A DNA stretch of 64,000 nucleotides from contig NC_047022.1 of the NCBI RefSeq assembly GCF_902652985.1, forward strand, positions 27,404,001-27,468,000, written 5' to 3'. This DNA comes from Pecten maximus. Lineage: Eukaryota. The translations under genes and the position numbers were made by a program. The notes below the pieces were generated by a model, which saw nothing but the letters and a program-made list of their open reading frames with translations, did not search any database and was not told the DNA's origin. This document shows, in pieces, positions 8,600 to 59,300 of this stretch (its first letter is position 1; the number at the start of each line of letters is the position of its first letter).

Positions 8600-11500
8600 C
8601 TGTAAATATATCATATCATTCATTATCAAACAAATATAGTATTTAACACATAGGCCCTTCACTACGAAGGTAACTAATGATAGACATGCACTAATATGTT
8701 ATAGGGCGGACACTTACGTACAGCATGTTACACACACTCATCATACGGCTATTTTATACATAAATGGTTAAGCGTTACATAGAAAGCCTCAATTTCTACA
8801 TATAATGAAATCATTTAGGGAGCACTTTAAATATTGACGTGTAAAGACCGTCTGACCTCTTACAATAACGACAGTATTACGGGGACGTACCTTTCCTATA
8901 CATGCCCGGTTTGTCGTCTTTCCATTCTGCTGTATCCTCCAAAGGGTCCTTCTCCTTCTTCATCTTCTGGAAGTTGCATTGTTTGGCGATCTCTTTGTAC
9001 AATGTCTCCGTGCCTTCAGTCTTTAAGAATGATGCAAGTCTGCTTACCTCGTTCACACTGTCCTATGATAGAAAATGAGTTGCCGAGTCATCCCCTGACA
9101 TAAGTCAGAATGAATCCATGTAAGGTTATACTGTAGACGTACATATTTTAGCGGTTGTAATATTTTAGCGCTTATTGAAGTTTTTTTATAATTGTTTTTC
9201 ATAGCAATTATCATAAGTGCGCCAATTCACCATAGCGCTAACCTGTTAAAATTCAGTTATCCGCTAAAATTTTTGTACGCCAAAATAATTACATTGCTTA
9301 TTTATTTTTTTCACATTTTTCGTTCTCGCAACAGCTAAGATAAGGCGTTATGAAAGTGGTCTTTCCCACGGATGATCGGGCCACCGATGAACTGCTTACA
9401 TTAAAGCTGTATAATAAACGTGACGATTTCATGTTATTACTTTCATTTCTACATATTAACATTCCTGTTTCCCTACCTACGAAATGTTAACATATCATTA
9501 GACAATCAAGTATAGTTCCCTTTATCGCGATTACCGTGACGTATGTCGAATACTGACTGCTTAGCAACACAAGGTCTCGAGAGATGCAGTGTGAAGAAGA
9601 CCATGGGTAATTTTTATTGTTGATATCAACTTTGGAATTTTCTTTTCCATTCCCTTGTACGAAGTCAAGCGTGTCTGGTGCTTGTTGATATGCCTCGTGG
9701 CCGCGATGTCCACCCAAGTACTGAATGAAGGTAATAAATTATAGGCACGAAATTATTTAATATTTTAACAGTATTGAAGTCATATGATTAGTACTAGTGG
9801 ATTAACGAATGCTTATAGTTCATGTTATCTTGTTTGATGATTTATGAACGCAGATGTAGCAATCCCTTTTTTCAGGATTTCATTATGTGCGTCCAGAAAA
9901 AAAGTATCCCTCTGTAGTGCAGTCAAAACTTTGAAGAGGGGCGAGGTTTACGATTGTGTGACGATGTTTACGGGGAGGTAACTCCAGCTCAGTGTTAGAC
10001 ATACGTCATATTAACGGCTCAATTTATAAAAGAAACTTCTTTATCTGGGGCACATATTTCTGAAAGTAAGCAAAGGATTTGGTTATGTTGGTTTTAATGG
10101 TATTTTGTGTATTTATTACCTTCTGGAGGTCCTCATAAGTGACAACATGTGCTGGATTCTGCTGGTTTCTGTTCATAGACGCCTCCCAGTCCACTACATA
10201 GTCAAACCAGGAACCGTAGTCAACTAGGGACAAACAGAGTTACATTATCACAATGTCAACTAGGAACTGTAGTCAACTAGGAACAAACAGGGCTACATTA
10301 TCACAATGTCAAACCAGGAACCGTAGTCAACTAGGGACAAACAGGGCTACATTATCACAATGTCAAACCAGGAACCGTGGTCAACTACTGAACTAGGGAC
10401 AAACAAGGCTACATTATCACAATGTCAAACCGGGTACCGTAGTCAACTAGGGACAAACAGAGCTACATTATCACCGTGTCAAACCAGGAACCGTAGTCAA
10501 CTAGGGACAAACAGAGCTACATTATCACAATGCCAAACCGGGTACCATAGTCAACTACTGAACTAGGGACAAACAAGGCTACATTATCACAATGTCAAAC
10601 CAGGAACCGTAGTCAACTAGGGACAAACAGAGCTACATTATCACAATGCCAAACCGGGTACCATAGTCAACTACTGAACTAGGGACAAACAAGGCTACAT
10701 TATCACAATGCCAAACCGGGTACCGTAGTCTACTGGAACGTAGTCAACTAGGGACAAACAGGGCTACATTATCACAATGTCAAACCGGGTAACGTAGTCA
10801 ACTAGGGACAAACAAGGCTACATTATCACAATGTCAAACCGGATACCTTAGTCAACTAGGGACAAAGAAGGCTACATTATCACAATGTCAAACCGGGTAC
10901 CGTAGTCAACTAGGGACAAACAGGGCTACATTATCACAATGTCAAACCAGGAACCGTAGTCAACTAGGGACAAACAAGGCTACATTATCACAATGTCAAA
11001 CCAGGAACCGTAGTCAACTAGGGACAAACAGGGCTACATTATCACAATGTCAAACCAGGAGCCGTTGTCAACCTTGGATAAACATGCCCACATTCATGTC
11101 CGAGATATAAATTGTTTTCTCATAATGAAATACTCGTAACAAAAACTTAACCATCAATGTTCTTTGGAATTTAAACATTTTACCCGACGAAGCCTTGGGA
11201 ATTTATCTAAAATTTTAACGTTGAATTATACCATAATCATCGTTTCCAATGAAAATTCCAGTTAATCACAAACAATATGATATTACATGTCAACAATTAA
11301 TATTCATTCTACCTCGCCGAAAACACTGGTCACTTCAGTGGTTTGCCAGGTGGCATTTGATTTGGTTAAAGATAATGGAATTACAAAATTGTAGGAAATT
11401 AAAACAGATTCGTTATAATTAACGTAATTGATGTGTTGTAATTATCAATTAAGTTTAATATGATAACGGAAATTCATAATGTTGTAAAAACTGTTCTAAC

Positions 11501-23438: not shown

Positions 23439-26400
23439 CTGCAATGTAGAAAAAGTACATCATTGTAGGAGAGGTCAGCGATGTCGGAATGGTAAGAAGT
23501 TTTACACTTATCTTTAAAAAAGATAAACGGCATAGTTTTAATGCTAGTGATTATAATGTAAATCTGCTGTTGAAATAAATTAACGAACTAATACATTTCA
23601 GCACGGTTAACAAAATTATATCGGTTTAAATCATATTTGATGATAATAAGACTGCATTTGAATAAGGAATATAATTTTATTAATGTGTCATTTGAAAAGA
23701 TACACCCACTTATTCAGCTTGCATTTAATCGTAACTTTGTTTCGTTTTTAACTGCACATTTACATTTTGCATCTACCGCTACATTGACCAATCACATACT
23801 TCATCTTGACCAGTAACGCCACCTGTCGCGTAATACCCGGGGCCAAAAGAATATGATACGGCTATGCCGAAAAACCCAACAGAAATATGCGATTGTTTGT
23901 GATTATCCGTTTGCTCCACATTGCCACTATATAACCAATGAGCGCGGGTTATTCGATTTGTCTGCCATCCTGTGAACCATATAGGATCCGAAGTTTATTG
24001 CGTATATAAATATTATTGATATATATATATGTTATTTACGATTTACGAGTTGATATAATCTCAGATAGGAAAACGTTTGAATACGATTCTTCATATCACA
24101 GGGGAAAAAATAAAACAATTTTTCGATGACTAATTACCCTATACGTCACATATCGCTGTCAGTTGGAAACATTATCTTAGGAACATAATGGTGATATTCG
24201 CCTGACGTTTGGAGGGGAACAAAGTCGATAATACTTTCATTCATATTTTGTTCATGCCTCGAATGATTTTAAAAAGAAGTTTAAGTTTTAAAATCCTCTT
24301 ATTTAAAAAAGACGTCCATGTTAAAATCACAAATGGGGTGCACTACAAATCAACACTATCAAACAATTAAACACGTGAGTATCTAAAAGTTTATTATTAT
24401 CCCTATTATACAGCAAAACATAGCAGGTAAACTTACATTTTTTGTTATGTTCTGATTTGTTAAGCTTTAATGTGGGAGACGATTTTTAGTCAATCGGATA
24501 TGTCTCAGACAGGGGGCAGAACGAACTATTCCTCGAAGTGGTGATTGTTCAACTAAAAAACCAAACGTGAGGCTTTGCCAAGAGAGATATTAACAAGAAA
24601 TATATTCGGTAAGAAAGGAAAATATAAGATCCCATTCAGTCCCCTCTTACGATCATACAAGGATGGAAGGAGGTACGATTCTTACGTCCTTACTGCCAGG
24701 CATGGTCAAGTGGGGTAGGCAGTCTGTAGAGGGATTTTGACAGAAGTCAACAACAACAATCTAACTTTCAAACAAATAATTAAACATATAGTACCTTTGC
24801 AAACACTGGTAGTCAGCACTCTGAGAATGGAGTCCAGCTCGGAGAAATCATCAACCATGTAATAGTTATCCGCGGCAATGTCTTCCAGCTGGTCTGACCC
24901 GACTTTCTTCCCAACTCCTGCAAAAAAAGTACCCTGACAATGAAGGTGCTGTGGTAACGTAGTAAGCTAGATAGTCGGACATAGCTTCACTTACTTTTAA
25001 TACTCAGATAATCACGGACTCGGGTGTAAATAATGCATAACCCTCAGACATTTTACTAATGCGTTTTAAAACCAACGAAGTAATAAGTAAACAATTAAAA
25101 AAATGAAATATCTCAGAGATTTTCCCTTCCTATATTTAACTCCTTTATATATTCTTAGATTAAAACAGACACACTACAACTATTTACCTATTGCAAACAT
25201 ATGTATTCCTTTTTTCTTTCGCTTCAGCTGCCATCCTCGTGTGTCTTGGTTATTCCCTGTGGATATCCGCCGGTGATTACAATCCCTATCCTCGGAACAT
25301 CTTTTCGTTCAAGTGAATCCGAGAAAATCTGATTAGTCATCATTTGTATGGCAAGGTCAGTATTCCTTTGTCCTGATGTGAATCGGACATTTGAGAGACC
25401 CTGTTCGACTTCCGCTGGTTTCGTGTACGAATCGAGATTGAACTCAATCTTTGGTGCATCAGCGAACGTTATGAGACCAACGCGGGTGTTGTCAGAACCA
25501 ATGTCAAAATTACTGACAACTTTGTCGATGAAATCGATGAGTTCATCGAAGTTCGATTGCCCGATATCGGCAGATGAGTCCAGGATAAAGGCAACATCTG
25601 CGACCTGCTGCCTGCAAACTGACATAAAATAATGTCAAATTAAAACGTAATATGTATGTTTCTACAGCCATATACAAAATAAACTTTCCCTTTGTTACTA
25701 TGAGACATGAGACATGGGAAAATATATATCACTGACTGTACGTATATCACTGACTTCGTATATCATTGACTGTACGTATATCACTGTATGTATATCACTG
25801 ACTGTACGTATATCACTGACTGTACGTATATCACTAACTGTACATATATCACTGACTGTACGTACATCGCTGACTGTACGTATATCACTAACGGTACGTA
25901 TATCACTGACTGTACGTATATCACTGACTGTACGTATATTACTGACTTCGTATATCATTGACTGTACGTATATCACTGTACGTATATCACTGACTGTACG
26001 TATATCACTAACTGTACGTATATCATTGACTACGTATATCACTGACTGTACGTATATCACTGACTACGTATATCACTGACTGTACGTATATCACTGATCA
26101 CGTATATCACAGACCACGTATATCACTAACTGTACGTATATCACTGACTGTACGTATATCACTGACTACGTATATCACTGACTGTACGTATATCACTGAC
26201 CACGTATATCACAGACCACGTATATCACTAACTGTACGTATATCACTGACTGTACGTATATCACTGACTGTACGTATATCACTGACTATGTATATCACTG
26301 ACTCTACGTATATCGCTGACTGTACGTATATCACTGACTGTACGTATATCACTGACTGTACGTATATCACTGACTGTACGTATATCACTAACTGTACGTA

Positions 26401-29400
26401 TATCATTGACTGTACGTATATCACTGACTGTACGTATATCACTGACTGTACGTATATCACTAACTGTACGTATATCACTGACTGTACGTATATTACTGAC
26501 TGTACGTATATCACTAACTGTACGTATATCACTGACCACGTATATCACTGACCACGTATATCACTGACTACGTATATCACTGACTGTACGTATATCATTG
26601 ACTGTACGTATATCACTGACTGTACGTATATCACTGACTGTACGTATATCATTGACTGTACGTATATCACTGACTGTACGTATATCATTGACTGTACGTA
26701 TATCATTGACTGTACGTATATCACTGACTGTACGTATATCACTGACTGTACGTATATCACTGACTGTACGTATATCATTGACTGTACGTATATCGCTGAC
26801 TGTACGTATATCACTGTACGTATATCACTGACTGTACGTATATCACTGAATGTACGTATATCACTGACTGTACGTATATCACTGACTGTACGTATATCAT
26901 TGACTGTACGTATATCACTGTACGTATATCACTGACTGTACGTATATCACTAACTGTACGTATATTACTGACTGTACGTATATCACTAACTGTACGTATA
27001 TCACTGACTACGTATATCACTGACTGTACGTATATCACTGACTACGTATATCACTGACTGTACGTATATCACTGACCACGTATATCACAGACCACGTATA
27101 TCACTAACTGTACGTATATCACTGACTTCGTATATCACTGACTGTACGTATATCACTGTATGTATATCACTGACTGTACGTATATCACTAACTGTACGTA
27201 TATCACTGACTACGTATATCACTGACTGTACGTATATCACTGACTACGTATATCACTGACTGTACGTATATCACTAACTGTACGTATATCACTAACTGTA
27301 CGTATATCACTGACTGTACGTATATCACTGACTGTACGTATATCACTAACTGTACGTATATCACTGACTGTACGTATATCACTAACTGTACGTATATCAC
27401 TAACTGTACGTATATCACTGACTGTCCGTATATCACTAACTGTACGTACAAATAAATGTATATCACTGACCACGTATATCACTGACCACGTATATCACTG
27501 ACTACGTATATCACTGACTGTACGTATATCACTGACTGTACGTATATCACTGACTGTACGTATATCACTAACTGTACGTATATCACTAACTGTACGTATA
27601 TCACTGACTGTACGTATATCACTGACTGTACGTATATCACTAACTGTACGTATATCACTGACTGTACGTATATCACTAACTGTACGTATATCACTGACTA
27701 CGTATATCACTGACTGTACGTATATCACTAACTGTACGTATATCACTAACTGTACGTATATCACTGACTGTACGTATATCACTGACTGTACGTATATCAC
27801 TGACTGTACGTATATCACTAACTGTACGTATATCACTGACCACGTATATCACTGACCACGTATATCACTGACTACGTATATCACTGACTGTACGTATATC
27901 ACTGACTGTACGTATATCACTGACTGTACGTATATCACTGACTGTACGTATATCACTGACTGTACGTATATCACTAACTGTACGTATATCACTGACTGTA
28001 CGTATATCACTGACTGTACGTATATCACTAACTGTACGTATATCACTGACTGTACGTATATCACTAACTGTACGTATATCACTGTACGTATATCACTGAC
28101 TATGTATATCACTGACTGTACGTATATCACTGACTGTACGTATATCACTGACTGTACGTATATCACTAACTGTACGTATATCACTGACTGTACGTATATC
28201 ACTGACTGTACGTATATCACTAACTGTACGTATATCACTGACCACGTATATCACTGACTACGTATATCACTGACTGTACGTATATCACTGTACGTATATC
28301 ACTGTACGTATATCACTGACTGTACGTATATCACTGACTGTACGTATATCACTGACCACGTATATCACTGACTACGTATATCACTGACTGTACGTATATC
28401 ATTGACTACGTATATCACTAACTGTACGTATATCACTGACTACGTATATCACTGACTGTACGTATATCACTGACTGTACGTATATCACTGACTGTTCGTA
28501 TATCACTGACTGTACGTATATCACTGACTACGTATATCACTGACTGTACGTATATCACTGACTGTACGTATATCACTGACTACGTATATCACTGACTGTA
28601 CGTATATCATTGACTGTACGTATATCACTGACTGTACGTATATTACTGACTTCGTATATCATTGACTGTACGTATATCACTGTACGTATATCACTGACTG
28701 TACGTATATCACTGACTGTGCGTATATCACTGACTGTGCGTATATCACTGACTGTACGTATATCACTGACTGTACGTATATCACTGACTACGTATATCAC
28801 TGGCTGTACGTATATCATTGACTGTACGTATATCACTGACTGTACGTATATTACTGACTTCGTATATCATTGACTGTACGTATATCACTGTACGTATATC
28901 ACTGACTGTACGTATATCACTGACTGTGCGTATATCACTGACTGTGCGTATATCACTGACTGTACGTATATCACTGACTGTACGTATATCACTGACCACG
29001 TATATCACTGACTGTACGTATATCACTAACTGTACGTATATCACTAACTGTACGTATATCACTAACTGTACGTATATCACTAACTGTACGTATATCACTG
29101 ACTGTACGTATATCACTGACTGTACGTATATCACTGACTACGTATATCACCGACTGTACGTATATCACTAACTGTACGTATATCGCTGACTGTACGTATA
29201 TCACTGACTGTACGTATATCACTAACTGTACGTATATCACTGACTATGTATATCACTGACTGTACGTATATCACTGACTATGTATAGCACTGACTGTACG
29301 TATATCACTAACTGTACGTATATCACTAACTGTACGTATATCACTGACTGTACGTATATCACTAACTGTACGTATATCACTAGCTGTACGTATATCACTA

Positions 29401-32400
29401 ACTGTACGTATATCACTGACTTCGTATATCACTAGCTGTACGTATATCAGTGACTGTACGTATATCACTGACTGTACGTATATCACTGACTGTACGTATA
29501 TCACTAACTGTACGTATATCACTAGCTGTACGTATATCACTGACTGTACGTATATCACTGACTTCGTATATCACTAGCTGTACGTATATCAGTGACTGTA
29601 CGTATATCACTGACTGTACGTATATCACTGACTGTACGTATATCACTGACTGTACGTATATCACTGACTTCGTATATCACTAACTGTACGTATATCAGTG
29701 ACTGTACGTATATCACTGACTGTACGTATATCACTAGCTGTACGTATATCACTAACTGTACGTACATCACTAACTGTACGTATATCAGTGACTGTACGTA
29801 TATCACTGACTGTACGTATATCACTGTACGTATATCACTAACTGTACGTATATCACTGACTGTACGTATATCACTAACTGTACGTATATCACTGACTGTA
29901 CGTATATCACTAACTGTACGTATATCATTGACTGTACGTATATCACTGACTGTACGTATAGCACTGACTACGTATATCACTAACTGTACGTATATCACTG
30001 ACTGTACGTATATCATTGACTGTACGTATATCACTGACTGTACGTATATCACTGTACGTATATCACTGACTGTACGTATATCATTAACTGTATGTATATC
30101 ACTGACTGTACGTATATCACTGACTGTACGTATATCACTAACTGTACGTATACCACTGACTGTACGTATATCACTGACTGTACGAATATCACTGGCTGTA
30201 CGTATATCATTGACTGTACGTATATCACTGACTATTCGTATATCACTAACTGTACGTATATCACTAACTGTATGTATATCACTTACTGTACGTATATCAC
30301 TGACTGTACGTATATCACTATATCACCGATAGTATGTTACGTATATCGACAATAATACCTAAAAGCTAAAATCTCCACAACAACTTTTGGGAGCTTAACA
30401 GTGTTGCCATTTCCCCCCTCTGGTATTGTTTTCTTATACAGCAGTTTTTCCAAGGGCACTAGCTGTTGCTATGGCATTAGCTGTTTCTAGGGCATTAGCT
30501 GTTGCTTGAACTAGTACACACGCCATAATGTACATTTATGTCTAAACTTCGCTTTAAAAAGACTATGATTTCCGTTCCTTTCTGCGACCTAATAGGTCTC
30601 GAAATGTGAAAAGTATACACAACTATGTGTATACCCGGTGAATTGTAGATTAGCCTCTGTAGTCGATGGAGACGCTAAAACGATTATATATATATCCTTT
30701 TCCATGACAACAATACATCTACACTTCATCTCGATTTCCTCATTACATTTTTCAATTCTAGAACTACTCTAGACAACGCGAACCTTCGGCGCATCCGTCC
30801 AGATTAAGTGTCACGGGTGCTGTCAACTGGCTGAGACATAGGGTCTACTGCGTTCAGCTTGACGTTAGGCTGTTGAGCTTACAGGAAGGACTAGCTTGCG
30901 GATTATTAGTATAATGTGACTTGGTGGAGAGGGGTGTAAAATGAGCCCTACAAACATTAACTCCTTCTGAGGTTACACATATCATTTGTAGATATTTTGA
31001 TTTCGTGAATTTTGAAACGAATTTTGTTTGTTACTACGTCTGAAAGTTACAATAAGTAATTCAAAACATCTTAGATTATTGTTCAAAGTGAAAGAACTAG
31101 CATCATAATAATAAGATTTAAATATCAATAGAGAGTTTGATAAAGTAATATGTATCAAATTCAATGCATCACGCTCTTCTCCTTATGTCCTATGGAACAC
31201 AGGAACAGACATTTTAGTAGTAGAACTAAGGAAGCTGAAGTTGCATCACACATCTGCCTTGTCATTCTAGGTATCCTCAGTCTAATGACTAATGTCAAAT
31301 GTCCCGTGTTTCAGGGAATATAAGATATTTAGAACATAAAATTAAGAGTTAACTATTAATATGTGGTCATACTTACTTTCCTCCATGCTTTCCGTTGGTT
31401 TTTCTGCATTAGAAAAAACAAGGATTATAAATCATAGATACATGTAACTATGATAAGTCGAATACCAAAGGGTGCATTTGCAACGGAAATTCAATTAGAA
31501 CATGTGATCCGTACAAATTTATATCAAATTAACTAAACAAAAGAAACGCCTAACAATGCATCATCACATTAGATATAAGCCATCATACTGAAGGGAACTG
31601 CCGTGTTATCTTCCAATACCTACTTTTAGTTTGAATATTGATTATGGAGTTTGGGAATAACGGAGGAACAAAAGTATTATTTTAAAAAGAAAATGAAAGA
31701 GAGGCACACACTGGAAGAACAATCTGCCATATGGAATGCTGATTATGTTCCTAGACGATAGATATTTTATTTAGAACATGAAGAGGTGACTTAAGCAGAG
31801 CAAATGAGCTAATGAAGTCTCCTCTTTTCTTAATTGTACAAGTTAATACTGGAACCAAACAGTCACCTAAAACACGCCTCACTAGTGGGATATAAACCTG
31901 ACATTTTAGAGTGATAATTTTGTTTTTAGAATATCAGTTTACTGCTCACCTTTACAGACCCTGTAGGCTAAAAGTCTCTTGATTGTTTCAAGAGCATCAA
32001 GAGTGTCAACAGTGAAGACGAATTCTGAACTCGGGTCGGATGCCAGGATGTCGAGCTCGGGTCTATACACGGCTCCGACACCTACAATGTATTAACTGTA
32101 TAACTCATGTTATGACCTTTGGATCAGCATTGCTAGTAATAAAAATGATTTATTGTTTTAATGATGACACACTTTTTACGTGGGGAAGCCAAGAAGCAAT
32201 GTCTTACCAATATTTATCAAAGAGAATACATAGGGAATACAATGATAGCGTCGTACAGGCATACATAATAAAACTCTAACCGATAGCAAACATGTAAATC
32301 CCCTTGCTAATAACTTGAGCTGCTTGTTTACGAGTCTTGTATGGGTCGGTAGAGTTCCCGTCCGTGACGATTATCCCAACCTGTGCCACGCCTTTCCGAG

Positions 32401-35400
32401 CTCCATTTCTGACTGTGAAACCTTCATCCAGGAGCAGTGTGAGAGCCTTGTCGGTGTAGGTGTTTCCTCCATTCCATTTTGTCTTGTTTACGGCGGTTTT
32501 AACCTGAAATTATTTTTTAATTAGAAGATAAAGAAGTATACCTTTCCACTAATTATATTCATGACCATTGTGCGCAGGGTCGAATCAATTTAACATTCTC
32601 TATATCTTTAAACTTTTATTCCAAAACTGATAAATAACCATTGAATTATGACCACCAAACTTTGCGTTTAAGCATAAGTAATAACGACGTACTTAAAGAT
32701 TGCTCCATTTTTGTTCCCCGTTGTTATCTTTTGTTCTTCTGGATTGTCTAAATAGCTAAAGTTGTGAAATAACTCGAAGTAATGAAATGAAAATATATTT
32801 CCCCGATTCATTGTTTGTCCAACTTTCAAAATATAGTATTTTCTCGATCTGACACATCGAGTATGCGTACAGTATAAGATGGTTAGCTATTAAATCTGAG
32901 ATAAAGTTGTTGCTTTTATTTGTTACTTATACTGTGAGTTACTTTGCAAACATTTGATTTAACGCAAAGCTCATAAGAAGAACGGGAACGAAAATGAGCG
33001 TAATTACGTGATAACTTCCATATACTTAAAAAAAAAAAAAACGCTCCTTTTTATACAGCAAAATAGTACAGGAAGGTTCAATGTTCAAACTTTGAAAAAA
33101 AAACTAAGCCCCACCCCCACCCCCCTCCCAAAAGAAAAAAAAACATCGATTAATATCAATAAAAATATGGTAATTTATTTAACAAAAGAGGCAAGTTTTA
33201 TTTGAATGGCTGAAACTGGACACTACAAAACTAACCGACCCACTCGTACTTCCTTAACACTTTTCATGCGAGATAACCTCTACAACTGTGATATATTACC
33301 CCACCGTCATCCTTAATTGTGGACCGGTTTACCTCTACAACTGTGATATATTACCCTACCTCATCCTTAATTGTGGACCGGTTTACCTGTACAACTGTGA
33401 TATATTACCCCACCTCATCCTTAATTGAGGGCCGGTTTACCTGTACAACTGTGATATATTACCCCCACCTCATCCTTAATTGTGGACCGGTTTACCTGTA
33501 CAACTGTGATATATTACCCCTACCTCATCCTTAATTGAGGGCCGGTTTACCTATACAACTGTGATATATTACCCCTACCTCATCCTTAATTGTGGACCGG
33601 TTTACCTGTACAACTGTGATATATTACCCTACCTCATCCTTAATTGTGGACCGGTTTACCTGTACAACTGTGATATATTACCCCACCTCATCCTTAATTG
33701 TGGACCGGTTTACCTGTACAACCGTGATATATTACCCTACCTCATCCTTAATTGAGGGCCGGTTTACCTGTACAACTGTGATATATTACCCCCACCTTAT
33801 CCTTAATTCAGGGCCGGTTTACCTGTACAACTGTGATATATTACCCTACCTCATCCTTAATTGAGGGCCGGTTTACCTGTACAACTGTGATATATTACCC
33901 CCACCTCATCCTTAATTCAGGGCCGGTTTACCTGTACAACTGTGATATATTACCCCACCTCATCCTTAATTGAGGGCCGGTTTACCTGTACAACTGTGAT
34001 ATATTACCCTACCTCATCCTTAGTGGTGAAATCGTCGAGTTTGAAGCGCATGGAGGCATTGCTACTGAAGGTTATGAGCCCAACATGGGTGAGATCGTCT
34101 CCTACGTCTAGATAATCGACGACCTGCTTTACGAAGGACAGTTCTAACTGGAAGTTCTTGGGTGTATGGATGCTACTTGACTCGTCAAGTATGAAGAAAA
34201 TGTCGGCTGGCTTACCCTGACATACTGTTGAAAAATTGTGTAACGAATAATCAGATATACTAAAATGTATATAGATGTACTTAAGATTCTAGCATAATTG
34301 AATCAGTATAAATAAGTGACATAATTATTACATTATTGAATACTTTAATATAGTGTGCATAGTCACGAGTGCAAGCTTATGTTTATCACGAAATTCGTAT
34401 TTATGAGAATATAAATAAAAATTCTTTAGAATAATTAATACAGGCGAATTTCGGACAGTATGCTTTTCTCTTAAGAAAAAATCGTGCGACGTCAGATAGT
34501 TATCGTGATGTCACGAATAATCTATGACGTCAGGGTAGTGCTTTACACGTGTGTCTTACAAGATTGATGATTGATGAGTCCATCATATGTTAGATATGTG
34601 GGATAAGGAAATTCTACCCTCGGGAGAATTTCACTATCCCGAAGACCTACCATATGATGGACTATTTTTCTCACACCTTTTTAGTAAAATAGATGGAGAA
34701 ATCGATCCAATATGGCAAAACTATAAAACCATTTATATATTTGGAAAGATAACAAAACGATATCGTATCTTCTGTTGAACATGAAACATAAGATGAATGT
34801 CAAAATGTCAAGTTAACAACAAATATAAATTAATGTTTGTCAGAGGCGATCAGCTTTCCGGAAACGGCCGACTGATTTTGGACAGCACGCCATATTCCTC
34901 CATATATGCTTTCTTGCACAACGAAAACATATCTAGTCTTCCGCTGTAAAAAAGAAATTCTCGACAAAATGTAACAATATGACTGAATGTATTCAGTTTA
35001 AAAAGATCAATGTTCAGGTCTTAGGTTGGAATGTTTTCAATGTTTCTTAACCCACTGTGCCTTGAAAATAGGAATTCCTTCAGCAACATCATGTACGATA
35101 GAGTTTTTCTCCTTCACAACTGGCCTCTGAAACTGTTGAGCCATCTTGATACACTAATCTGTTTACATATGTCAAGCAGACGACTGTAAGAGTTACCCCC
35201 CTTCTTACATAAAAATCAGTCCCGGACCTTAGGTCACTCGGTGCGCCTATGTGGAATATCGCTATCAAACATAGGTATTCCACATGGGACTAAAAGAATC
35301 TTACATGGGTCTGTTCCGTGGACAGGGATATCTCAACCCGAGTGCAAGAGTTTGGCCGCGTGCTGGCCAGCTGAACTCTTACACGAGGGTTGAGATATCA

Positions 35401-38400
35401 TTGTTCGCGGAACAGACCCATGTTAGGTAGAACAGGCAAATCGTATTGTAAACTGTGCTATTTACCTTCTTTTGGGATCCTCTCCTTGTGGTATAGTTGG
35501 CGCTGTAAGTGAAACGTATATATATCAAATTTAAATTGATGCATTTAAATGACAAAACTGTAACAAAAATGACACAAACTTTCATTATTGTAGACTATAT
35601 CGTTTGTAAAACTTCTCGAATAAATAAAGAACAATAATTTGGTGTGTTTGAGAACGTATCACATTCATTGATAACTGGATTAAACTACAGGTTTTACTGT
35701 GCTGCTTCTTTGATTTCAGTATAATGTAGGATATGTAGTCTAGTAACTGGAAATGAATTTAAGTTTAATAAACATGAGTATTATTGAAAGGGAGATCTAA
35801 GTGGTGCTTGAGATTAGAAAGATGGACATAATACTGACGTATTTGTAAATATCGGGAGAAGTAATACTTACTAGTTGTTGGAGCTATTGGGGCTGGTATA
35901 TTGACGACTTAAACGAAAAGGCAAAAAACATCCATCAACATCGCACAGATACATTGTTAAAGAAAGATAGGCAATAGCACAGCTCTGTAAAAACAGTATT
36001 TAACAAAGTATTACGTTAGGACATGAGATGTAGCAGCAGACTGCATTACATCATTGATTATAATTATCCACCAATGATGAAGCCATATTTAATGCAAGTA
36101 TTGAATAGATAAGTGACTTACGACTACAAACTCTGTTGAACAGGGCCTTTTTCACTCCTTCTTTGTCAAGCTCACTGTAGTTGGCAACTGTGATGACAAA
36201 CTTGTCGTCAGGGTCTGTAGCTATTCCGTTGAGTTCAGCCATATTCACCTTAGGTCCGATTCCAATAGCAAACAGGGTTATGTTGTCGTTCCTTGCTGAC
36301 TTAGCTTCTTCTTGCGTTTTTGCCTTACCCTGGTTGGATGAAAGCCCGTCAATTCTCCCGGGGTTGGTTGTCCCGTCTGTCAGGATAATCCCCACGTGCT
36401 CGGCATCGTCACGTGCACCATTATTAGAAGCAAATAGGAAGTCACGCATTCGTTCGATAGCCTTGTACGTCCTAGTGGCTAGGCCTGCGCGATATCGAAT
36501 ATCATCAACGTCTTCAATGACACTCGCTTGGTCAGCATTTGTGTTGAATTTGAATTCGTCATACACGTAGGAGTTAAAAGAAACTGCAGCAAATTGGACA
36601 TCCTTAGGACCAACGTCAAAGTATCTGACTAAATTTTCTATGAACGCCTTCTGAATTTTGAAATCTGACTCGTGTATACTGCTTGAGCTGTCAACAACAA
36701 AGGCGATGTCTGCATAGCATTTCTTATCTATGTCAACACCTGTAAAAATAATCAGATGAAGAACACGTTGATTCAGTGATCAAAACGTCTAAATAAAAGG
36801 TTTCAAGGATAGCAAAGAGTATCTTACATGGGAGTGTAATTGCTTGATTAAGTATATGACTAATTCCCAGCTCTGACGATCTCATGTGACGGGAGTTACA
36901 TACCTCGATTTATGAATAGAAAAGCATTTCAGTCTTCGGGTTTTGTGATGTCGCTAATATAATGACGTCATAAATGCATTGTAACACTATTTTAAATTAT
37001 GGTTCCGAAATACGAAGTTCTCATAAAGCGTCTGACGTTGAAAAACTACATACTTCATCCTGTAAACAATTACTTGGTGTACGTAAAAATACTTGTAATG
37101 CTATGGTTTATTTAGAACTTGGTAGATATCCATTGACATTGTTAAGGAAATTAAGAATTTTCAAGTATTTGATAAAGATAGTAAATACTGATAATTGTAT
37201 TTTAAGATCATGTTATAAAGACATGTTGGGGAATAACGATAAATGGGTGTTGAATATCAAAAATGAATTATATAGAATAGGCCTAGGCTATACAGAAAAT
37301 ATTGACAATATCTTTTACATCTTAATTAAAGATAGACTTTTAGATGTTTACAGACAAGATTGCATAGAACAAATTAGAACATGGTAAAAGGGTCTTGTTA
37401 TAATGTCTTTTTATTCTAAAATATCCATACTTTTCTGATATACGTAAGAAGTTTTTGAAAAGTTAAAATTATAAAAAGCAAAGCATTTTTAAATTGATAT
37501 AGTTATTTAACGGACAAAACACAAAAGAATTAAAAAAAATTGGCCAAATATACTAAAGAGAAAATAATTTCATTAACTTAGTTATGCTCTTCGAGTATAT
37601 TGTCTCTTAAACGTATTTATTAATCTGTGATGTTGTCAATGTTATGTAAATGTGTACATTTTTGTATAACAATGTATGTGTATGATAGTGATGAGTCGGA
37701 AGACTCAAAGTTAATAAAGAACTAGAACTGTTCAATTGGTTTTTCATCACGGCATGCAAAACATCCAATACGAGCAACATCTGTACACTTGATAGTGGGA
37801 ATTCCGCAGGTTAGCTTTATATGGAATTGTGAAATATTATATCATAATTGTAGACTGTAGTTTTGGTTTATCACGTATTTACGTAACTGGTCTGAAAAAC
37901 ATTCACCTCGGCAGATGTCCGTTCATCTCAGCCGAGGTTTCGGTGATTATTATTCAGACTAAGTGCGTAAATCAGGGAAACATCTCACCAGTCAATAACT
38001 TATTGTACAATGACACGGACCTAAATAACTCAAATTACAATAAAAACAAAACTAGATTCACTTAATTCGGTTTTCATATAGCTTCGTAACTTAATGTATA
38101 ATTTAACCAGTAAAAATGTACTTACCAACGGTTGATTTGATCTGAAATATAAATAAATACAGCATTGTTATGACTATAGAATTATTTTTTTATCCAACAT
38201 AAAATTATAATAATTGATGAACAATCAAAAAACGGCGTCGGGGAAATATTTCACGTCAATTCAAATCGTATAAACAATTCATTAAAGATTATATCTTTAA
38301 GATAATCAGGTAATTATCTTTGAAACAGATAAAGGGGTCTACGAATGCAATACGTTAATGATCATACGGGAGCATGTTTATTCCCAAGTTTAAATCACTT

Positions 38401-41400
38401 CATGCGTTTTAATGTACCGAAGTCAATATTGAAACCCTGTGTCTCAAAATCAGTTTTACCCTTTAAAGCTTAGAAGATTGCTTGTGCACGAGAACAGGGT
38501 GAGAAAAACAGGGAATATCGACAACAGTAATTCATAATCAAGATTGCTTGTGCACGAGAACAGGGTGAGAAAAACAGGGAATATCGACAACAGTAATTCA
38601 TAATCAAGATTGCTTGTGCACGAGAACAGGGTGAGAAAAACAGGGAATATCGACAACAGTAATTCATAATCAAGATTGCTTGTGCACGAGAACAGGGTGA
38701 GAAAAACAGGGAATATCGACAACAGTAATTCATAATCAACAAAGCGAGAAAATAAGACCGGAAGTGACGGAGGGAAAGTGCCCTGTGTTTCATCGTGTTT
38801 GATTTGTAGTAACCCTGTCTGCAGCCTGTCGATATATTTCACAGCTATCGATAAGTGATAATTTACTGCTAATATTGAACTGAACACGACGCAACTTCAC
38901 AGACCGAGGTAGACATTTATAAAATTGGTACAGTTCTCTACTTGACGTTCAGTTTTGAGTTTGAAGGTATAGGATGTCCTGGTGAGCCGTGTCGTACCGC
39001 TGCCTTTTACGACATTGCTTCTGCGGGAAAGTTATCTTTGACGGCCTGACATGTTCGTAATGAAGTTATGCCTGAATTGCAGTTGCACTACCGTGCTGAA
39101 AAATCAGACATTACAACTGAATATTACCTCATCGAACCAAAATAAATTATTTTACAAATATAATGTATATTTGTCTTTTATTGGTACTTAAGCTGTCTAC
39201 ATTTCGTGCAGTTTCATTTACATCCATTCTCACGTTTTGTTTACATGGGCACACGTGTTTGTGCCATGTGGTGATCTCATTTATGTGACTGTGTGCAGGT
39301 GTAAGTCCATGTTTGCTTGTAAGGTTTGATATGGTGTTTTTTTTATATTCTTAGCTATTACCTAGTTTGCATGCTACTCTAACATAAATAATCGAGGTAA
39401 ACAAGTTATGATTGGGGTGTATCATCACATTGGTGTGTAAGAGTATTAGTAGAGTATACTATCTGTATAAAGTAGGGACAAAAGAGTAATAGAGTATTAG
39501 TAGGAATATGATATCTGTTTAATGTAGGGATGTAAGTGTATCGGTTATTTATTTATTTTATAATTACGGCCTTATCGGTAGGAGTATACTGTCTTTATAG
39601 TGTCGGGTGTAAGAGTATCAATAGGGTATAATAATTTCATAGTGTATGGTGTAAGAGTATTAATAGGGTATAATAATTTCCTAGTGTCGGGTGTAATAGT
39701 ATCAATAGGGTATAATAATTTCCTAGTGTCGGGTGTAAGAGTATCAATAGGGTATAATAATTTCCTAGTGTCGGGTGTAAGAGTATCAATAGGGTATAAT
39801 AATTTCATAGTGTCGGGTGTAAGAGTATCAATAGGGTATAATAATTTCATAGTGTCGGGTGTAAGAGTATAAATAGGGTATAGTAATTTCATAGTGTCGG
39901 GTGTAAGAGTATCAATAGGGTATAATAATTTCATAGTGTCGGGTGTAAGAGTATCAATAGGGTATAATAATTTCATAGTGTCGGGTGTAAGAGTATTAAT
40001 AGGGTATAATAATTTCAAAGTGTCGGGTGTAAGAGTATTAATAGGGTATAGTAATTTCATAGTGTCGGGTGTAAGAGTATCAATAGGGTATAATAATTTC
40101 ATAGTGTCGGGTGTAAGAGTATCAATAGGGTATACTAATTTCATAGTGTCGGGTGTAAGAGTATCAATAGGGTATAATAATTTCATAGTGTCGGGTGTAA
40201 GAGTATTAATAGGGTATAATAATTTCATAGTGTCGGGTGTAAGAGTATTAATAGGATATAATAATTTCATAGTGTCGGGTGTAAGAGTATCAATAGGGTA
40301 TAATAATTTCATAGTGTCGGGTGTAAGAGTATCAATAGGGTATAATAATTTCATAGTGTCGGGTGTAAGAGTATCAATAGGGTATAGTAATTTCATAGTG
40401 TCGGGTGTAAGAGTATCAATAGGGTATAATAATTTCATAGTGTCCGGTGTAAGAGTATTAATAGGATATAATAATTTCATAATGTCGGGTGTAAGAGTAT
40501 CAATAGGGTATAATAATTTCATAGTGTCCGGTGTAAGAGTATCAATAGGGTATAATAATTTCATAGTGTCCGGTGTAAGAGTATCAATAGGGTATACTAA
40601 GGCCATAGTGTCGGGTGTAAGAGTATCAATAGGATATAATAATTTCATAGTGTCGGGTGTAAGAGTATCAATAGGGTATAATAATGCCATAGTGTCGGGT
40701 GTAAGATTATCAATAGGGTATAATAATTTCATAGTGTCCGGTGTAAGAGTATTAATAGGATATAATAATTTCATAATGTCGGGTGTAAGAGTATCAATAG
40801 GGTATAATAATTTCATAGTGTCGGGTGTAAGAGTATCAATAGGGTATAATAATTTCATAGTGTCGGGTGTAAGAGTATCAATAGGGTATAATAATTTCAT
40901 AATGTCGGGTGTAAGAGTATGAATAGGGTATAATAATTTCATAGTGTCGGGTGTAAGAGTATCAATAGGGTATAATAATTTCATAATGTCGGGTGTAAGA
41001 GTATGAATAGGGTATAATAATGCCATAGTGTCGGGTGTAAGAGTATCAATAGGGTATAGTAATTTCATAGTGTCGGGTGTAAGAGTATCAATAGGGTATA
41101 GTAATTTCATAGTGTCGGGTGTAAGAGTATCAATAGGGTATAATAATTTCATAGTGTCGGGTGTAAGAGTATCAATAGGGTATAATAATTTCATAGTGTC
41201 GGGTGTAAGAGTATCAATAGGGTATAATAATTTCATAGTGTCGGGTGTATGAGTATCAATAGGGTATACTAATTTCAGTGTCGGGTGTAAGAGTATCAAT
41301 AGGGTATAATAATGCCATAGTGTCGGGTGTAAGAGTATCAATAGGGTATAATAATTTCATAGTGTCGGTTGTAATAGTATCTATATGGTATAGTAATTTC

Positions 41401-53351: not shown

Positions 53352-56300
53352 CTACAAAGTATAACCAAATAATATTTTTGGGGGTTAATGTGGCATACCA
53401 TCAAAACAAAAACGCAAAGATGGAATCCAAAATGTCAGTAAGTTTTGGGTTTTGATTCGCTGTTCATAACAATCTCCTCAGGCTACTCATGCAAGATTAA
53501 TGTACTAAGGCACCTTTCTCTTGCTTTTTGTTCACAAAATGGATTAATGACACCTAACCAAGTGACATATCTGATCAAATGAAAATTGTCATTTATAGAA
53601 AGAATAATATTTTTCTCTGTCTTAAAAGCAAAAATAAGTTTTGACCGAATCACATATACCTACACATTACAAGACTGATAATTCGATACGAGGTCTGGAG
53701 ACAAACGTTTGGTGAGATGTTCCATATTTTCAAAGCGTAGACTCAAAAGGATTCCTGTTCCTTGGAATCAATAACAAAGTGGACACATAGGTAAACATAG
53801 ATACATTTTATCGTTTGTACGGTTAGAATCAGTTATCGTATGTAATATTACATATGACTTACCCTTGCAAGTTTTTAGAGCGAGGGCCTGGCGGATTGAA
53901 TTGAGTGAGGAAAAGTCATCGACCATGAAATAACTATCAAGGTCAGAAGACATGATCCTCAGTTCATCCTCAACGATGTACTGACCGACACCTGTAATAT
54001 ACGGATATAACAGTGTACTGCGTTTTCATATCATATAGGCAAGGTAAACTAAATATATGTAGTATCACTTGAAAAGAATTAACTTTTAGATCGCATTGAT
54101 ACTCAAAATATAATCCCTGAAATACTCGTTTGAAAGCCACCGTAGTATCGCAAATCTAATAACCCTTAAACGAAATTCAACCCATTTTATTTATTTCTTT
54201 ATTGATAGCACTACCGTAACATACCTATTGCATACATGCGTATCCCTAGTTCCTTCGCCGCTGCCGCCATAGCGTACGTTTTCTTGGGCTCACGTGAATT
54301 CCCATCAGTAATTATTATTCCTATCTTCGGTACATCGCTTCCCCGTGCACCAAAGTCTGCTGTGAACATCTGTTCGAACATCATTTGTATGGCCTCTGCG
54401 GTATACGTAAGTCCTGTTCTATAATGGACTTTTGAGAGAGCCTTTTCTACTTCGGCTGATGATGTGTACGTATCGAGGTTGAACTCAATCTGTGCTGTAT
54501 TGGCGAAGGTTATAAGGCCAACTTGGGTGGAATCTAATCCAATATCAAACTGATTTACCACGTCCTTTATAAAACCGATGAGCTTATTAAAGTCTGACTG
54601 TCCAATACTAGTAGAGGCGTCCGCAATAAACGCAATATCTGCAACCTGTCGTCTACAAACTATATAAACAAATAGATAAATAAACTTCATAACTTTAAAA
54701 AATGTCATCATTAATTATTTTATTTCCTGAAAGTTGTGCAGATGTAATCACATACTAATTTTGAACAAAACCAAATATTAATATAAAACTACCCAATATG
54801 GAGGACTATTTAAGTTGTTTGTGACATAAATGGTCTAAATGGTCTAACCAGAATGTTTAAACCTGTGTCACACGAATCAAATTGTTGTGTTACTTACTTT
54901 CCTGTGGTCTGTCTTGTTGGTCCTCTGGAAAACAAATTTTTGAATTACTAAAATATTGCTGAAGTGTATTTCATTGTACAAAATGAACTGTTGTGAAATA
55001 TTATTTTCTGTTTAAAATTGAATCAATTTCATATCAATGAGTCACTGTTCCTAATATTTATGTTCTCAATACGTTTTGATATAATTCCGTTAACGACACC
55101 TGAAGCCTTTCAGTGTTTTACCTTTGCAGACCCGGTATGCCAAAATGTCCTTGATTGTGTTGAGAGCTCCAAGATTCTCGACAGTAAAGACATAGTCAGA
55201 ATTCGGGTCGGACGCCAGGGTGTTAAGCTCGGCTCTGTTCACGGATCCAATACCTACGGAGACATGTTTTCCAGTAATTCATTCCATTTGGATTCCAATA
55301 TACATGTACGTGTATATTATTATCAGGTCTTTTGTAAGATTAGACACCTTGGTAAGGGTCATTAAACAGTTAAGTATTTAGAATAAAGTTGGCGATTTAT
55401 ATTATATTCTAAACAAACCCAGCCGCCTTTGTCAGAAAGTTTTCAGAGCATATTATGGTCAAACCCAGCCATCTTTGTCAGAAAGTTTTCAGATCATGTT
55501 ATGGTCAAACCCAGCCATCTTTGTCAAAAAGTTTTCAGAACATGTTATGGTTAAACCCAGCCATCTTTGTCAGAAAGTTTTCAGAGCATGTTATGGTCTA
55601 TAAACTGTATTCCACACTGCCCCTGCCGTTAACACCAGCATGTGCATTATATTTATACTTCTTGAACATATTGTTGATTTTAGCCAAAAGCTTGAACAGA
55701 ATTTTAATGATCCTACCTATTGCAAACATGTAAATCCCCTTGTTAAGAACTTGCGCTGCTTGTCTACGAGTCTTGTATGGGTCGGTAGAGTTCCCGTCCG
55801 TGACGATTATCCCAACCTGTGCCACGCCTTTCCGAGCTCCATTCCCGACTGTGAAACCTTCATTCATGAGCATTTTGAGAGCCTCGTTGGTGTAGGTGTT
55901 TCCCCCCTGCCAGTCTATTGCCTTTACGGCGGTCTTTACCTAGAAATAAGGTGAGGTTAGAATGTTTATAACAGACAACTTTCATTCATACCACAGAGAC
56001 ATATTTCTGTGTAGTAGATAAAGAAAGAATGGTATGTTGGTAACGTTGTACTTTTTATTGATTGCATGTCCTGTATCTTGCGGATGTGGTGACGATTTTT
56101 TTATCAGTTTAATACTGAAATACTAGAATTAAATGTGACCACGTTTTCCCTCTGCATACTATTTACTTTACTAATTACCTGGATTAAGAGACCACCTATC
56201 GTCTGTGATCTATTTTTTGCCTCCCTTGGAATGTCACATTTGGCAGGTTTAACTGTACATTAAACATGAGAGAGAAAATGAACTGACTACGTTTTGCAAT

Positions 56301-59300
56301 AACGTATATGTGCATTCCAATGTGCTTAAAGTCACTTTTTAAGCTGTACGGTCACGTGACTACTGATTTACATACCTCATCTTTACTGGTGTAACGGTTG
56401 AGAGGGAAACGCATGGTTGCATTGCTACTGAAGGTTATGACCCCAACATGGGTGAGGTCATTTCCTACGTCTAGGTAGTCGACGACCTGATTCACAAAGG
56501 ACAATTCCAACCGGAAGTTCTGGGCTGTATGAATGCTACTGGATTCATCAATTATGAAAAAGACGTCTGCCGGTTTTCCTTGGCACACTGTAACAACATA
56601 ATATTATGATTACCTTTAAAGATTCCACGGTCATATATATACTAGATGGGACTATATGAAAAATGACACGTGCGTATTCGATTTGTGACGTAGAAGTCAT
56701 AGTTATGTTAAACTTTCCTATATCGAAGTGTAAGTTTACCTTCTTTTGGATCTTCTCCAGATGGTTTGGTTGGTGCTGAAAAGATAAAAGAGTATGCTGT
56801 AGCAATATGCAAAAGACGTTTATTTACAGACAGGGAGTTAACAAGGTTAACGAAAATAATTTCAAAATAAAATACATGCATATAGGCGTTGATAAAAGTT
56901 ATTCACTCACGCATCCTACTTACTAATTGGTTGAGAGCTTGTGACTGGAGGAGGCTGTGTTGTGACAGCTAAAATAAATAAAATATGAAATAAAAGTAAG
57001 CTTTACTTATTCAGTAGATACATGATTGTTTATTGATATACATGTACTTTTACCATCTTTATTATAAAACGTTCGAACATCTGTTTAAGCGCGTTAATTC
57101 ATGGTTCATGATTGATGATACTAATAAAATAGCTGATATCGTGGTATATTTGCATATAAGAAGCAGTTTTCTCACCGTAACATGCCCTGTAAGACAGTTC
57201 CTCTTTGATTTTTTCCGTGTTTAACTGATTGTAGCTGTCGACCTTGATGACAAACGTGTCGTCTGGATCAGAAGCTATACCATTGAGTTCGTCCATATTC
57301 ACGGAAGATCCGATTCCAACAGCAAACATGTATATGTTGTCGTTCCTTGCTAATTTAGCTTGCTTTTGCGTTTCGGCCTTACCCTGTCTGGAAGAATATC
57401 TGTCATAGCCCCCGGGGTTGGTTGTTCCGTCTGTCAGGACAATGCCCACATGGACAGCATCGTCACGAGCACCGTTGCCCGGAGCAAATAGATAGGTGCG
57501 CATGCGTTCAATGGCTTTGTACGTCCTAGTGGCTGGGCCTTCGCTATAACGAATGTTACTAACGTCTTTAATTACACTTGCTTGGTCAGCATTTGTTTTG
57601 AACCTGAACTCGTCATATACATTTGCGCTATAGGAGACTGCTGCAAATTGGACATCTTCAGGACTCACGTCAAACCGTCTAACTACATCTTCGATAAACC
57701 TTTTTTGAACTTCAAAATCCACCTCCCATATACTGCTGGAGGAGTCAACAACGAAAGCGATGTCCACCTTGCATTTCAGTTGATCAATATTTCGACCTAA
57801 CAACATAAGGACGGATCATATCTTAGTAGCACAGTTTAATAACTATATGGTAACATGACAAAAAAAGGGGGAAAAAGAACTGAAAAAGAAAAATCGGGGA
57901 AACTTAGCTTTAGGTATAGAGGTGATATAAAAACAAAAGGAAATGTGTCAAAAACTAAACATGTAATTATAATTGACATTTGGATCATGGTTTAATAAAT
58001 GTAACTTTTAAATTTTGTTCATTATGATGATAAAATTGATTGATAGATGTTTCAACAGGTGTAAAAGTCATGATGTCTTATCTTACACTCGGGAAACATA
58101 GTATACGCATTTGTGTTGTATTTGTTTTTATATTATTATCATTTTAATGCAATGCCGCATACGTTATCTGTACCTTCAATCTAACAACATTTTCCATTGC
58201 TAATATTTTTTAAATGAGGTTCATTAGCAATATTAATGAGTTACATTGTTTACATTGAGACGTTGCATTGTTTATATATATGAGGTACATTACGCTCGTC
58301 TTAAAACGTGAGCATAGTAGATGGTGCTTTGTTTTCCAACATACCATGCGACAATCTACTGGATCTTATCGCGTATTACTATTCTTCATATAACAAACCG
58401 ACATTTTCCATTGTTAACATTTAATGGAAATAATGGCAAGATTTGATTAGGTACATATAATATATTGATAGAAGACATTCATAGTTAAATGACATTGTTT
58501 GCAATTAAACTTTTTAGAGTGACGGGTCACGCTACGTTGCCTATCTCATGGTCTCAAACACACAACTTTTTCAAGAAGAATATTGTCTCTATCGGGTTCA
58601 TGTAAATAACTTACCATTAGCCAAGTTGATCTGAAAATGTACAAGTAGCTTGTTAGGAAGTGATACAAATACGGAACATGCACGTCAAAGAAATGGAGAT
58701 TTCCTTTAATATTAAAACATAAAAATGTCTATCTAGAATAACGCAATCTAATTAAAATCTAGATGGTCATTATCACTACGTTACATGAACACCATCTATA
58801 TTTTAATTAGATTGAGAATAACGTTGCACAAAACATGAAAACAAGTAGTCTGCAGCAATATTGAGTATTCTAAATTATTCCGATTTTTGTGTTATATTCC
58901 AGACTTAATCAAAATAAATTATACAAAAAATTTAAATGGGAAAATGACAAATACAGATATATAGACAAAAACGACCAGTACAATACTAAATAGTACAAAT
59001 ATAGCAAAAACCATTATGTTTTAATTTTTAAATTGTTTTAAGAATAACGATACAATGATAAATACATGTCTTTAATGAAATGAAGCGGAGTGCGAAATTG
59101 TTCTGTCCAAAGTGAAATGATATACTTAATATAAAAAACAATTCATGATAGTGCCTCTGCAGATTGTGACACGTTTTAAGATAGTCACTAAGCTTGTTTC
59201 TGTGTATAGTCAGACATAGTATAAAGTATGTAAACATGACTATTGATATTACATATTTTAAATGTATCTTCAGACAGAATATTCAAACAAAAATAGTAGC

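What the first reader, a model, noticed from the sequence alone, without database searches (positions are those of the whole stretch)
33277..34022. Second junction-derived minisatellite: about 14 decoy 5' splice sites after vWA-B exon 6, again 54 bp and again stop-guarded
Seen: the unit is the last 10 exon nt + GT(A/G)GGGTAA..., so GAG|GT donors repeat about 14 times. Reading past the first donor hits GTA GGG TAA at once, so any downstream donor gives a premature stop. Each unit also contains tacAG|GTAAAC, a back-to-back acceptor/donor resembling a recursive splice site. It mirrors the SULT acceptor array but is unrelated in sequence, and paralogue A lacks it. Inference: junction-seeded VNTRs may be a recurrent feature of this genome, with a possible role in splice regulation or intron/exon birth.
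Basis: partly seen in the sequence, partly recalled or inferred. Interest (0 to 1): 0.7.

Follow-up and report, generated by a model that had tools for sequence, protein, structure and literature searches.

The report
Repeated splice donor in scallop gene
A 54-base piece covering the end of one exon of a scallop matrix-protein gene and its splice signal is repeated about 14 times into the next intron, but the transcripts examined use only the original signal, so it is likely an ordinary, tolerated repeat of a kind already known from human and lancelet genes.

Summary
The array is real: 33276-34022, 54/55-bp units, 13.7 copies, 94% alike, single locus. It starts 10 nt inside exon 6 of an intact, expressed vWA-domain gene of king scallop and gives 13 downstream copies of the donor. 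Spliced contigs from 4 of 4 runs (4 studies) join acceptor 32503 only to the original donor. An in-frame stop follows 200 of 310 ordinary donors within 54 nt, and 6 of 12 other donor-spanning repeats have none. No other repeat of 317 has period 54. The tacAG/GT site is a weak acceptor in a 1.5-kb intron. Across 792 other exon ends (1.6 Mb, two gene families), junction repeats recur but are not enriched: donors 12 of 370 (9.5 expected), acceptors 1 of 422 (10.4 expected). This is the class of human F7/CBS junction minisatellites and amphioxus 'mirages', and this scan already noted several in the same genome. The one fresh lead, found post hoc, is the donor/acceptor imbalance (Fisher P=0.001). 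Copy-number variation and rare mis-splicing remain untested.

The parts
33276..34022 (-). Junction-spanning minisatellite, 13.7 copies of a 54/55-bp unit (last 10 exon nt + intron start)
   Evidence: single locus in G000; mean pairwise unit identity 0.948, 11 distinct units of 13
34013..34224 (-). Exon 6 of vWA-B (first half of the second VWA domain); its 3' end is the donor in use
   Evidence: Pfam VWA hit; spliced join in 4 of 4 runs; dN 0.107, dS 0.94 against paralogue A
34007..34015 (-). Authentic donor GAG|GTAGGG (34013|34012), 32nd percentile among 310 predicted donors
34004..34006 (-). In-frame TAA, third codon of the intron read-through
   Evidence: sequence
33980..33988 (-). Internal CAG|GTAAAC of unit 1 (exact in 11 of 14 units): scores higher as a donor than the real one (64th percentile), weak as an acceptor (4th-9th percentile); no use seen
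32504..34012 (-). 1509-nt phase-0 intron; the array fills its first 737 nt
32281..32503 (-). Exon 7 of vWA-B; acceptor 32504|32503
31950..32079 (-). Next exon of vWA-B
   Evidence: spliced joints in 4 of 4 runs
31377..31403 (-). 27-nt linker exon of vWA-B
   Evidence: spliced joints in 4 of 4 runs
25187..25618 (-). Third VWA-domain exon of vWA-B; two extra bases in the window break the frame, but transcript contigs of 4 of 4 runs lack them
55940..56587 (-). Paralogue A: matching exon and intron, same intron position, no array, in-frame TGA at codon 8 of its read-through
10201..11072 (-). Sulfotransferase acceptor-spanning array (comparison case), overlaps its exon by 23 nt, unrelated unit

Best explanation
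The array is a locus-specific minisatellite built from the exon 6/intron junction of an intact, expressed scallop vWA-domain gene; the transcripts examined splice at the first donor only, and the repeat is likely a neutral by-product. Steps: (1) shown: the unit is local junction sequence and occurs nowhere else that the search found. (2) Inferred: a small tandem duplication across the donor arose after the A/B gene duplication and then grew by slippage or unequal exchange, as arrays do all over this genome (306 arrays in 1.2 Mb, 16% of bases). (3) Shown: the main transcript uses donor 34013. (4) Inferred from the human F7 experiments: the most upstream donor next to the exon is chosen first, so the 13 copies and the stronger-scoring CAG|GTAAAC sites stay silent, and selection has little to act on. 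(5) Shown: the stop codon, the 54-bp period and the AG/GT site are no more than ordinary intron sequence gives.
For: Only the true exon end is joined to acceptor 32503 in 4 of 4 runs from 4 studies (table 7). Donor-spanning repeats occur at the intronic background rate: 10 of 310 against 8.1 expected, 2 of 60 against 1.4 in a replicate set, pooled ratio 1.26, CI 0.65-2.2. In-frame stop within 54 nt after 200 of 310 donors and within 9 nt after 38 of 310. 6 of 12 other donor-spanning repeats are stop-free up to the second junction copy. 5 of 13 units are 55 bp, so frame is not kept. Paralogue A has an in-frame stop at codon 8 with no array. Human F7 intron 7 has the same layout; its pseudo-donors are functional but unused, and the authors found that stop codons did not explain the silence (PMC1557585). 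The gene is intact in transcripts and exon 6 is under purifying selection.
Against: All RNA evidence is assembled contigs, which drop rare forms, and the runs are only guessed to be RNA (their GT..AG joints support it). In human G1P3 and CBS, the second and third copies are used (PMC1557585 introduction). The donor CI reaches 2.2, and two-copy donor duplications alone were 4 against 1.7 expected (P=0.088), so modest enrichment at donors is not excluded. A stop as early as codon 3 is seen after only 2 of 51 phase-0 donors. The spacing to the next junction copy was a multiple of 3 in 8 of 12 other cases against 34% background (P=0.02-0.05, post hoc), a weak hint that copies are sometimes used. 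The window itself has 2 junction arrays among 19 annotated ends (P about 0.01-0.05 at background rates, but the window was picked for them). The sample covers two gene families only.
Confidence: 0.85

Rival explanations
1. The copies leak: a minority of transcripts splice at downstream donors, carry the TAA and would be destroyed by nonsense-mediated decay, so copy number would tune the gene's output (as reported for the human CBS VNTR).
For: 6 downstream donors have the same 9-mer as the real one, and 11 CAG|GTAAAC sites score higher. Downstream use gives a premature stop, so such RNAs would be under-represented in contigs. Human G1P3 and CBS use second and third copies (PMC1557585 introduction). 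3n spacing in 8 of 12 other cases.
Against: No such join in 4 of 4 runs, one with contig depth above 400 at this exon. No excess of stops in junction repeats. Nothing shows that the length varies or is conserved.
Confidence: 0.09
2. The tacAG|GTAAAC sites act as recursive splice sites that remove the intron in steps.
For: AG/GT back to back with a good donor half (64th percentile) in 11 of 14 units. The acceptor score (3.9-5.1 bits) is not far below that of the real acceptor, which is itself weak (6.1 bits, 15th percentile).
Against: Acceptor half at the 4th-9th percentile of 352 predicted acceptors, 8 pyrimidines in 17 positions. The intron is 1509 nt and the first site lies 27 nt from the donor, whereas known recursive sites lie in very long introns behind strong pyrimidine tracts (recalled, not from a call). 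Paralogue A splices the same intron without the array.
Confidence: 0.02
3. Exon-intron junctions seed tandem repeats preferentially in this genome (a splicing-linked mutational mechanism), giving raw material for new exons or introns.
For: Two cases in this window; 13 more among 792 exon ends; two-copy donor duplications 4 against 1.7. Ebner et al. propose intron gain from such repeats (PMC3087553).
Against: Overall rate is at or below background: 11 of 662 against 16.6 expected; with 2.5 or more copies, 5 against 12.4. This intron predates the array (shared with paralogue A). Purifying selection could hide a higher birth rate, so the test measures survivors only.
Confidence: 0.04

Closest known systems
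Human F7 intron 7 37-bp minisatellite (Borensztajn et al. 2006, PMC1557585; seen: abstract, Introduction, search passages)
   Same: First unit spans the exon-intron boundary, the donor is repeated downstream, only the first donor is used.
   Different: Mollusc gene; 54/55-bp unit with 10 exon nt (F7: 37 bp, 4 exon nt); 13.7 copies (F7: 5-9); a second, stronger-scoring donor motif inside each unit; length polymorphism and latent function of the copies are shown for F7 and untested here.
Human G1P3 (6-16) intron 2, CBS intron 13, LMNB2 and PDGF intron 4 junction minisatellites (known to me only through the Introduction of PMC1557585)
   Same: Same architecture; 10-25 repeated donors.
   Different: G1P3 and CBS use two pseudo-donors besides the real one; none was seen here. 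LMNB2 and PDGF use only the first, as here.
Amphioxus 'mirages' (Adh3, globins BflGb6 and BflGb9; Ebner et al. 2010, PMC3087553; seen: passages)
   Same: Minisatellite-like duplications of exon-intron boundaries in a marine invertebrate, on donor or acceptor side, not disturbing regular splicing; intron gain was already proposed.
   Different: Different phylum. Length instability is reported for mirages and untested here. I found no published count against a background.
Recursive splice sites (recalled; one search gave only a listing)
   Same: AG immediately followed by GT inside an intron.
   Different: Short intron, weak pyrimidine tract, sites made by repeat copying, no intermediate seen.

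Membership tests
Junction-spanning minisatellite (F7/CBS type, 'mirage') | Tandem array whose terminal unit spans a real exon-intron boundary | tested here: met
   Array starts 10 nt inside the exon; boundary confirmed by spliced contigs
Junction-spanning minisatellite (F7/CBS type, 'mirage') | Splice signal repeated in the units | tested here: met
   14 donor motifs, 7 of them GAG|GTAGGG including the real one
Junction-spanning minisatellite (F7/CBS type, 'mirage') | Regular splicing goes on at the authentic site | tested here: met
   4 of 4 runs, 4 studies; contigs show the main form only
Junction-spanning minisatellite (F7/CBS type, 'mirage') | Locus-specific unit, not a dispersed repeat | tested here: met
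   5 of 5 matches in G000 lie in this array; lower bound by the tool's note
VNTR in the strict sense | Copy number varies between individuals | not tested
   One assembly only; no result on other animals' alleles
F7-type silent pseudo-donors | Copies can splice when the first donor is destroyed | not testable with these tools
   Needs a minigene
Recursive splice site | Strong acceptor (pyrimidine tract + YAG) directly followed by a donor | tested here: inconclusive
   Acceptor 4th-9th percentile, but the real acceptor is only at the 15th; donor half good
Recursive splice site | Lies in a very long intron (criterion recalled) | tested here: not met
   Intron is 1509 nt
Recursive splice site | Splicing intermediates in nascent RNA | not testable with these tools
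   Only assembled contigs were listed
Selected 'stop-guarded' decoy array | In-frame stops more frequent than after ordinary donors | tested here: not met
   6 of 12 other donor-spanning repeats have a stop before the second junction copy against 200 of 310 ordinary donors within 54 nt

The most novel reading that the evidence does not exclude
The scallop genome is a natural experiment on splice-site choice: repeats that copy a donor downstream survive at the neutral rate, while repeats that copy an acceptor upstream are about tenfold depleted (12 of 370 against 1 of 422 exon ends), because the spliceosome takes the first site it meets in the 5'-to-3' direction. This array would be one data point of a genome-wide polarity rule that extends the F7 scanning model to invertebrates and can be tested with one annotation file.
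Probability: 0.4. Interest if true: 0.45.

Novelty: new member of a known kind. Interest (0 to 1): 0.17.

Why it matters
The array alone matters little: it is one more case of a layout described in human and amphioxus genes, and it shows that a mollusc spliceosome ignores 13 donor copies and 11 better-scoring sites in its main product. The side result is more useful. Junction repeats are common enough here (about 3% of donors in my sample) to count, and donors and acceptors differ strongly. If that holds genome-wide, it gives population-scale evidence for first-come splice-site choice and a ready set of natural reporters. A practical point: the window's frameshift in the third VWA exon is absent from transcripts, so the public 271-aa protein for this gene is likely truncated by an assembly error.

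Tried and rejected
1) Homology between the unit's intronic part and paralogue A's intron start looked plausible but failed a control (709 of 2519 windows score as well; 398 of 3311 for the last unit plus flank): rejected. 2) vWA-B as a pseudogene with relaxed splicing: rejected, transcripts of 4 of 4 runs lack the two extra bases. 3) Dispersed repeat or transposon origin: no other locus. 4) Special 54-bp period: 0 of 317 other arrays; two random arrays share a period with probability 0.029; a third 54-bp array in the window (43368-43908) lies away from any exon I annotated. 5) No listed holder is on record as RNA, and all are contigs; lack of contig cover in the intron is not used as evidence. 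6) Two of my exon seeds were in the wrong frame and gave no usable profile, so those exon types are missing from the counts. 7) The original G1P3 paper was not held. 8) Searches for a published donor/acceptor count found nothing relevant (scan notes); these are narrow searches of an open-access library. Supplements of scallop genome papers were not read and may tabulate such repeats. 9) Allele and copy-number differences between animals remain without a result.

Full report
What is there. Tandem Repeats Finder reports an array at 33276-34022, period 54, 13.7 copies, 94% matches. On the minus strand each unit begins with the last 10 nt of the exon that ends at 34013 and goes on with intron sequence. 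Of 13 complete units, 8 are 54 bp and 5 are 55 bp; the 14th is partial. There are 14 donor motifs, the real one and 13 copies; 12 read GAG|GT. A genome search with 224 bases gave 5 matches, all inside this array. The flanking exons match Pfam VWA. A database protein identical to a downstream exon is labelled cartilage matrix protein-like of Pecten maximus, so the organism is the king scallop.

The gene. vWA-B has a tandem paralogue, A, about 22 kb away with the same intron position and no array there. Exon 6 shows dN 0.107 and dS 0.94 between them. The window has two extra bases in the third VWA exon that break the frame, but transcript contigs of 4 of 4 runs lack both, so the gene is intact and the break is likely an assembly error. 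Because A and B share the intron and only B has a 94%-identical array, the array is likely much younger than the intron and did not create it (inference).

Which donor is used. I laid 4 of the 20 holder runs, from 4 studies, on the acceptor side. All are assembled contigs and only guessed to be RNA, but they show GT..AG joints. In each run the loose end at acceptor 32503 is the true exon end, which differs from the repeat end after 10 bases. No contig joined a repeat donor or the CAG|GT site to it. Contigs drop rare forms, so this shows the main product only.

Strength of the sites. With matrices trained on 310 donors and 352 acceptors that I predicted in this genome (a somewhat circular set), the real donor is at the 32nd percentile and the internal CAG|GTAAAC, exact in 11 of 14 units, at the 64th. 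So position, not strength, likely decides. As an acceptor the tacAG scores at the 4th-9th percentile, with 8 pyrimidines in 17 positions; the real acceptor is at the 15th. With a 1509-nt intron this makes recursive splicing unlikely (criteria recalled), though not tested directly.

The stop guard. The TAA at 34006-34004 is real, and the downstream donors printed all lead to an early stop. But an in-frame stop ends within 9 nt after 38, within 27 nt after 128 and within 54 nt after 200 of 310 ordinary donors. Among phase-0 donors a stop within 9 nt is rarer, 2 of 51. Paralogue A has a stop at codon 8 with no array. Of 12 other donor-spanning repeats, 6 have no stop before the second junction copy. 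The 55-bp units shift the frame, so only 4 of 14 units are in the exon frame. The period 54 occurs in 0 of 317 other arrays, so it is no rule.

Is it enriched? I took 120 stretches of 10 kb around VWA and sulfotransferase hits, built exon profiles and placed boundaries by splice motif and phase. Of 475 exon hits, 681 boundaries passed; start-exon acceptors, stop-exon donors and ends that failed phase or score were dropped, and the 19 in the window were set aside, leaving 662. The method finds both window arrays. With 2.5 or more copies, 5 arrays begin in the last 50 exon nt against 12.4 expected (ratio 0.40, CI 0.13-0.94). With two-copy duplications included, 11 of 662 against 16.6. Split by type: donors 10 of 310 against 8.1, acceptors 1 of 352 against 8.4. 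A list of all repeats touching any exon hit, accepted boundary or not, showed no hidden acceptor cases beyond a start exon and a 272-bp exon duplication. I wrote the prediction down and ran 40 new stretches (94 exon hits, 130 boundaries): donors 2 of 60 against 1.4, acceptors 0 of 70 against 1.9 (P=0.15 alone). Pooled: donors 12 of 370 against 9.5 (ratio 1.26, CI 0.65-2.2), acceptors 1 of 422 against 10.4 (ratio 0.10, P=0.0004), Fisher P=0.001. Limits: two gene families, paralogues not independent (two cases sit at the same junction of related genes), predicted boundaries, and the split was noticed after the fact. An earlier scan note put such repeats at about 1 in 25 predicted sites; I find 13 of 792 overall and 12 of 370 at donors.

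How it most likely works. Shown: local junction sequence is repeated, the first donor is used, and donor-spanning repeats are about as common as repeats anywhere in these introns, in stretches where arrays cover 16% of bases. Inferred: a chance duplication across the donor grew by slippage or unequal exchange and is tolerated because the donor next to the exon is taken first. The scarcity of acceptor cases fits the same logic, since an upstream acceptor copy would be met first, but this is inference, and the window's own sulfotransferase array shows that acceptor cases can survive.

What is known. PMC1557585 (seen: abstract, Introduction, passages) describes the human F7 intron 7 minisatellite with the same layout, lists G1P3, CBS, LMNB2 and PDGF, shows that the copies work but do not compete, and argues that stop codons do not explain this. 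PMC3087553 (seen: passages; lead from earlier scan notes) describes amphioxus 'mirages' and already proposes intron gain from them. PMC3902484 was seen in a listing only. Earlier scan notes record at least four similar cases elsewhere in this genome (unchecked by me). I found no published donor/acceptor count; these searches are narrow.

Verdict. Observation confirmed; interpretation partly supported (recurrent, not enriched, no shown function). New member of a known kind, interest 0.17. The donor/acceptor polarity is the one lead worth a whole-genome count.

Noticed in passing
window 25217-25237 (- strand exon 25187-25618): Two extra bases break the frame of the third VWA exon of vWA-B in the window; transcript contigs of 4 of 4 runs lack them. 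The public protein P0001 (271 aa) ends at the resulting stop, so it is likely truncated by an assembly error.
   Followed up: yes
window 32329-32407 and its match in 55718-55939: Exon 7 of paralogues A and B shares a 79-nt identical run, and synonymous divergence is 0.15 against 0.54-0.55 in neighbouring exons: likely recent gene conversion.
   Followed up: partly
window 33969-33991 against 32485-32512: The CAG|GTAAACCGGCC part of the unit resembles the acceptor and start of exon 7 (12 of 9012 windows score as well). Chosen by eye after the fact, so it may be chance; a templated origin is possible.
   Followed up: partly
L068:9741-9944 and L070:3337-3540 (G000 C8, next to the window): Two more paralogues of the cluster read straight through the position of this intron, so the intron was gained in the A/B line or lost in those copies.
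   Followed up: no
window 31377-31403: A 27-nt linker exon of vWA-B, seen in 4 of 4 runs.
   Followed up: yes
L135, L137, L138, L139, L140, L142 (two), L154, L166, L170, L191, L197; acceptor case L070: Further junction-spanning repeats in sulfotransferase and vWA genes, from 2 to about 58 copies; L137 (48 bp x 58) has no stop in read-through of its first units; L140 and L142 show a 56-copy and a 3-copy state of the same junction in paralogues.
   Followed up: partly
G000:C19:32210000-32455000: A run of more than 50 single-exon VWA domains in the same orientation over about 240 kb, likely one giant matrix-protein gene.
   Followed up: no
window 36974-37387 (-): A 137-aa open frame in a vWA-B intron that reads like the end of a non-LTR retrotransposon protein (resemblance recalled, not scanned).
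   Followed up: no
window 25725-30319, 39597-41923, 17975-20123, 5796-7470: Four further arrays of 1.7-4.6 kb; arrays cover 24% of the window against 16% of the sampled stretches.
   Followed up: no
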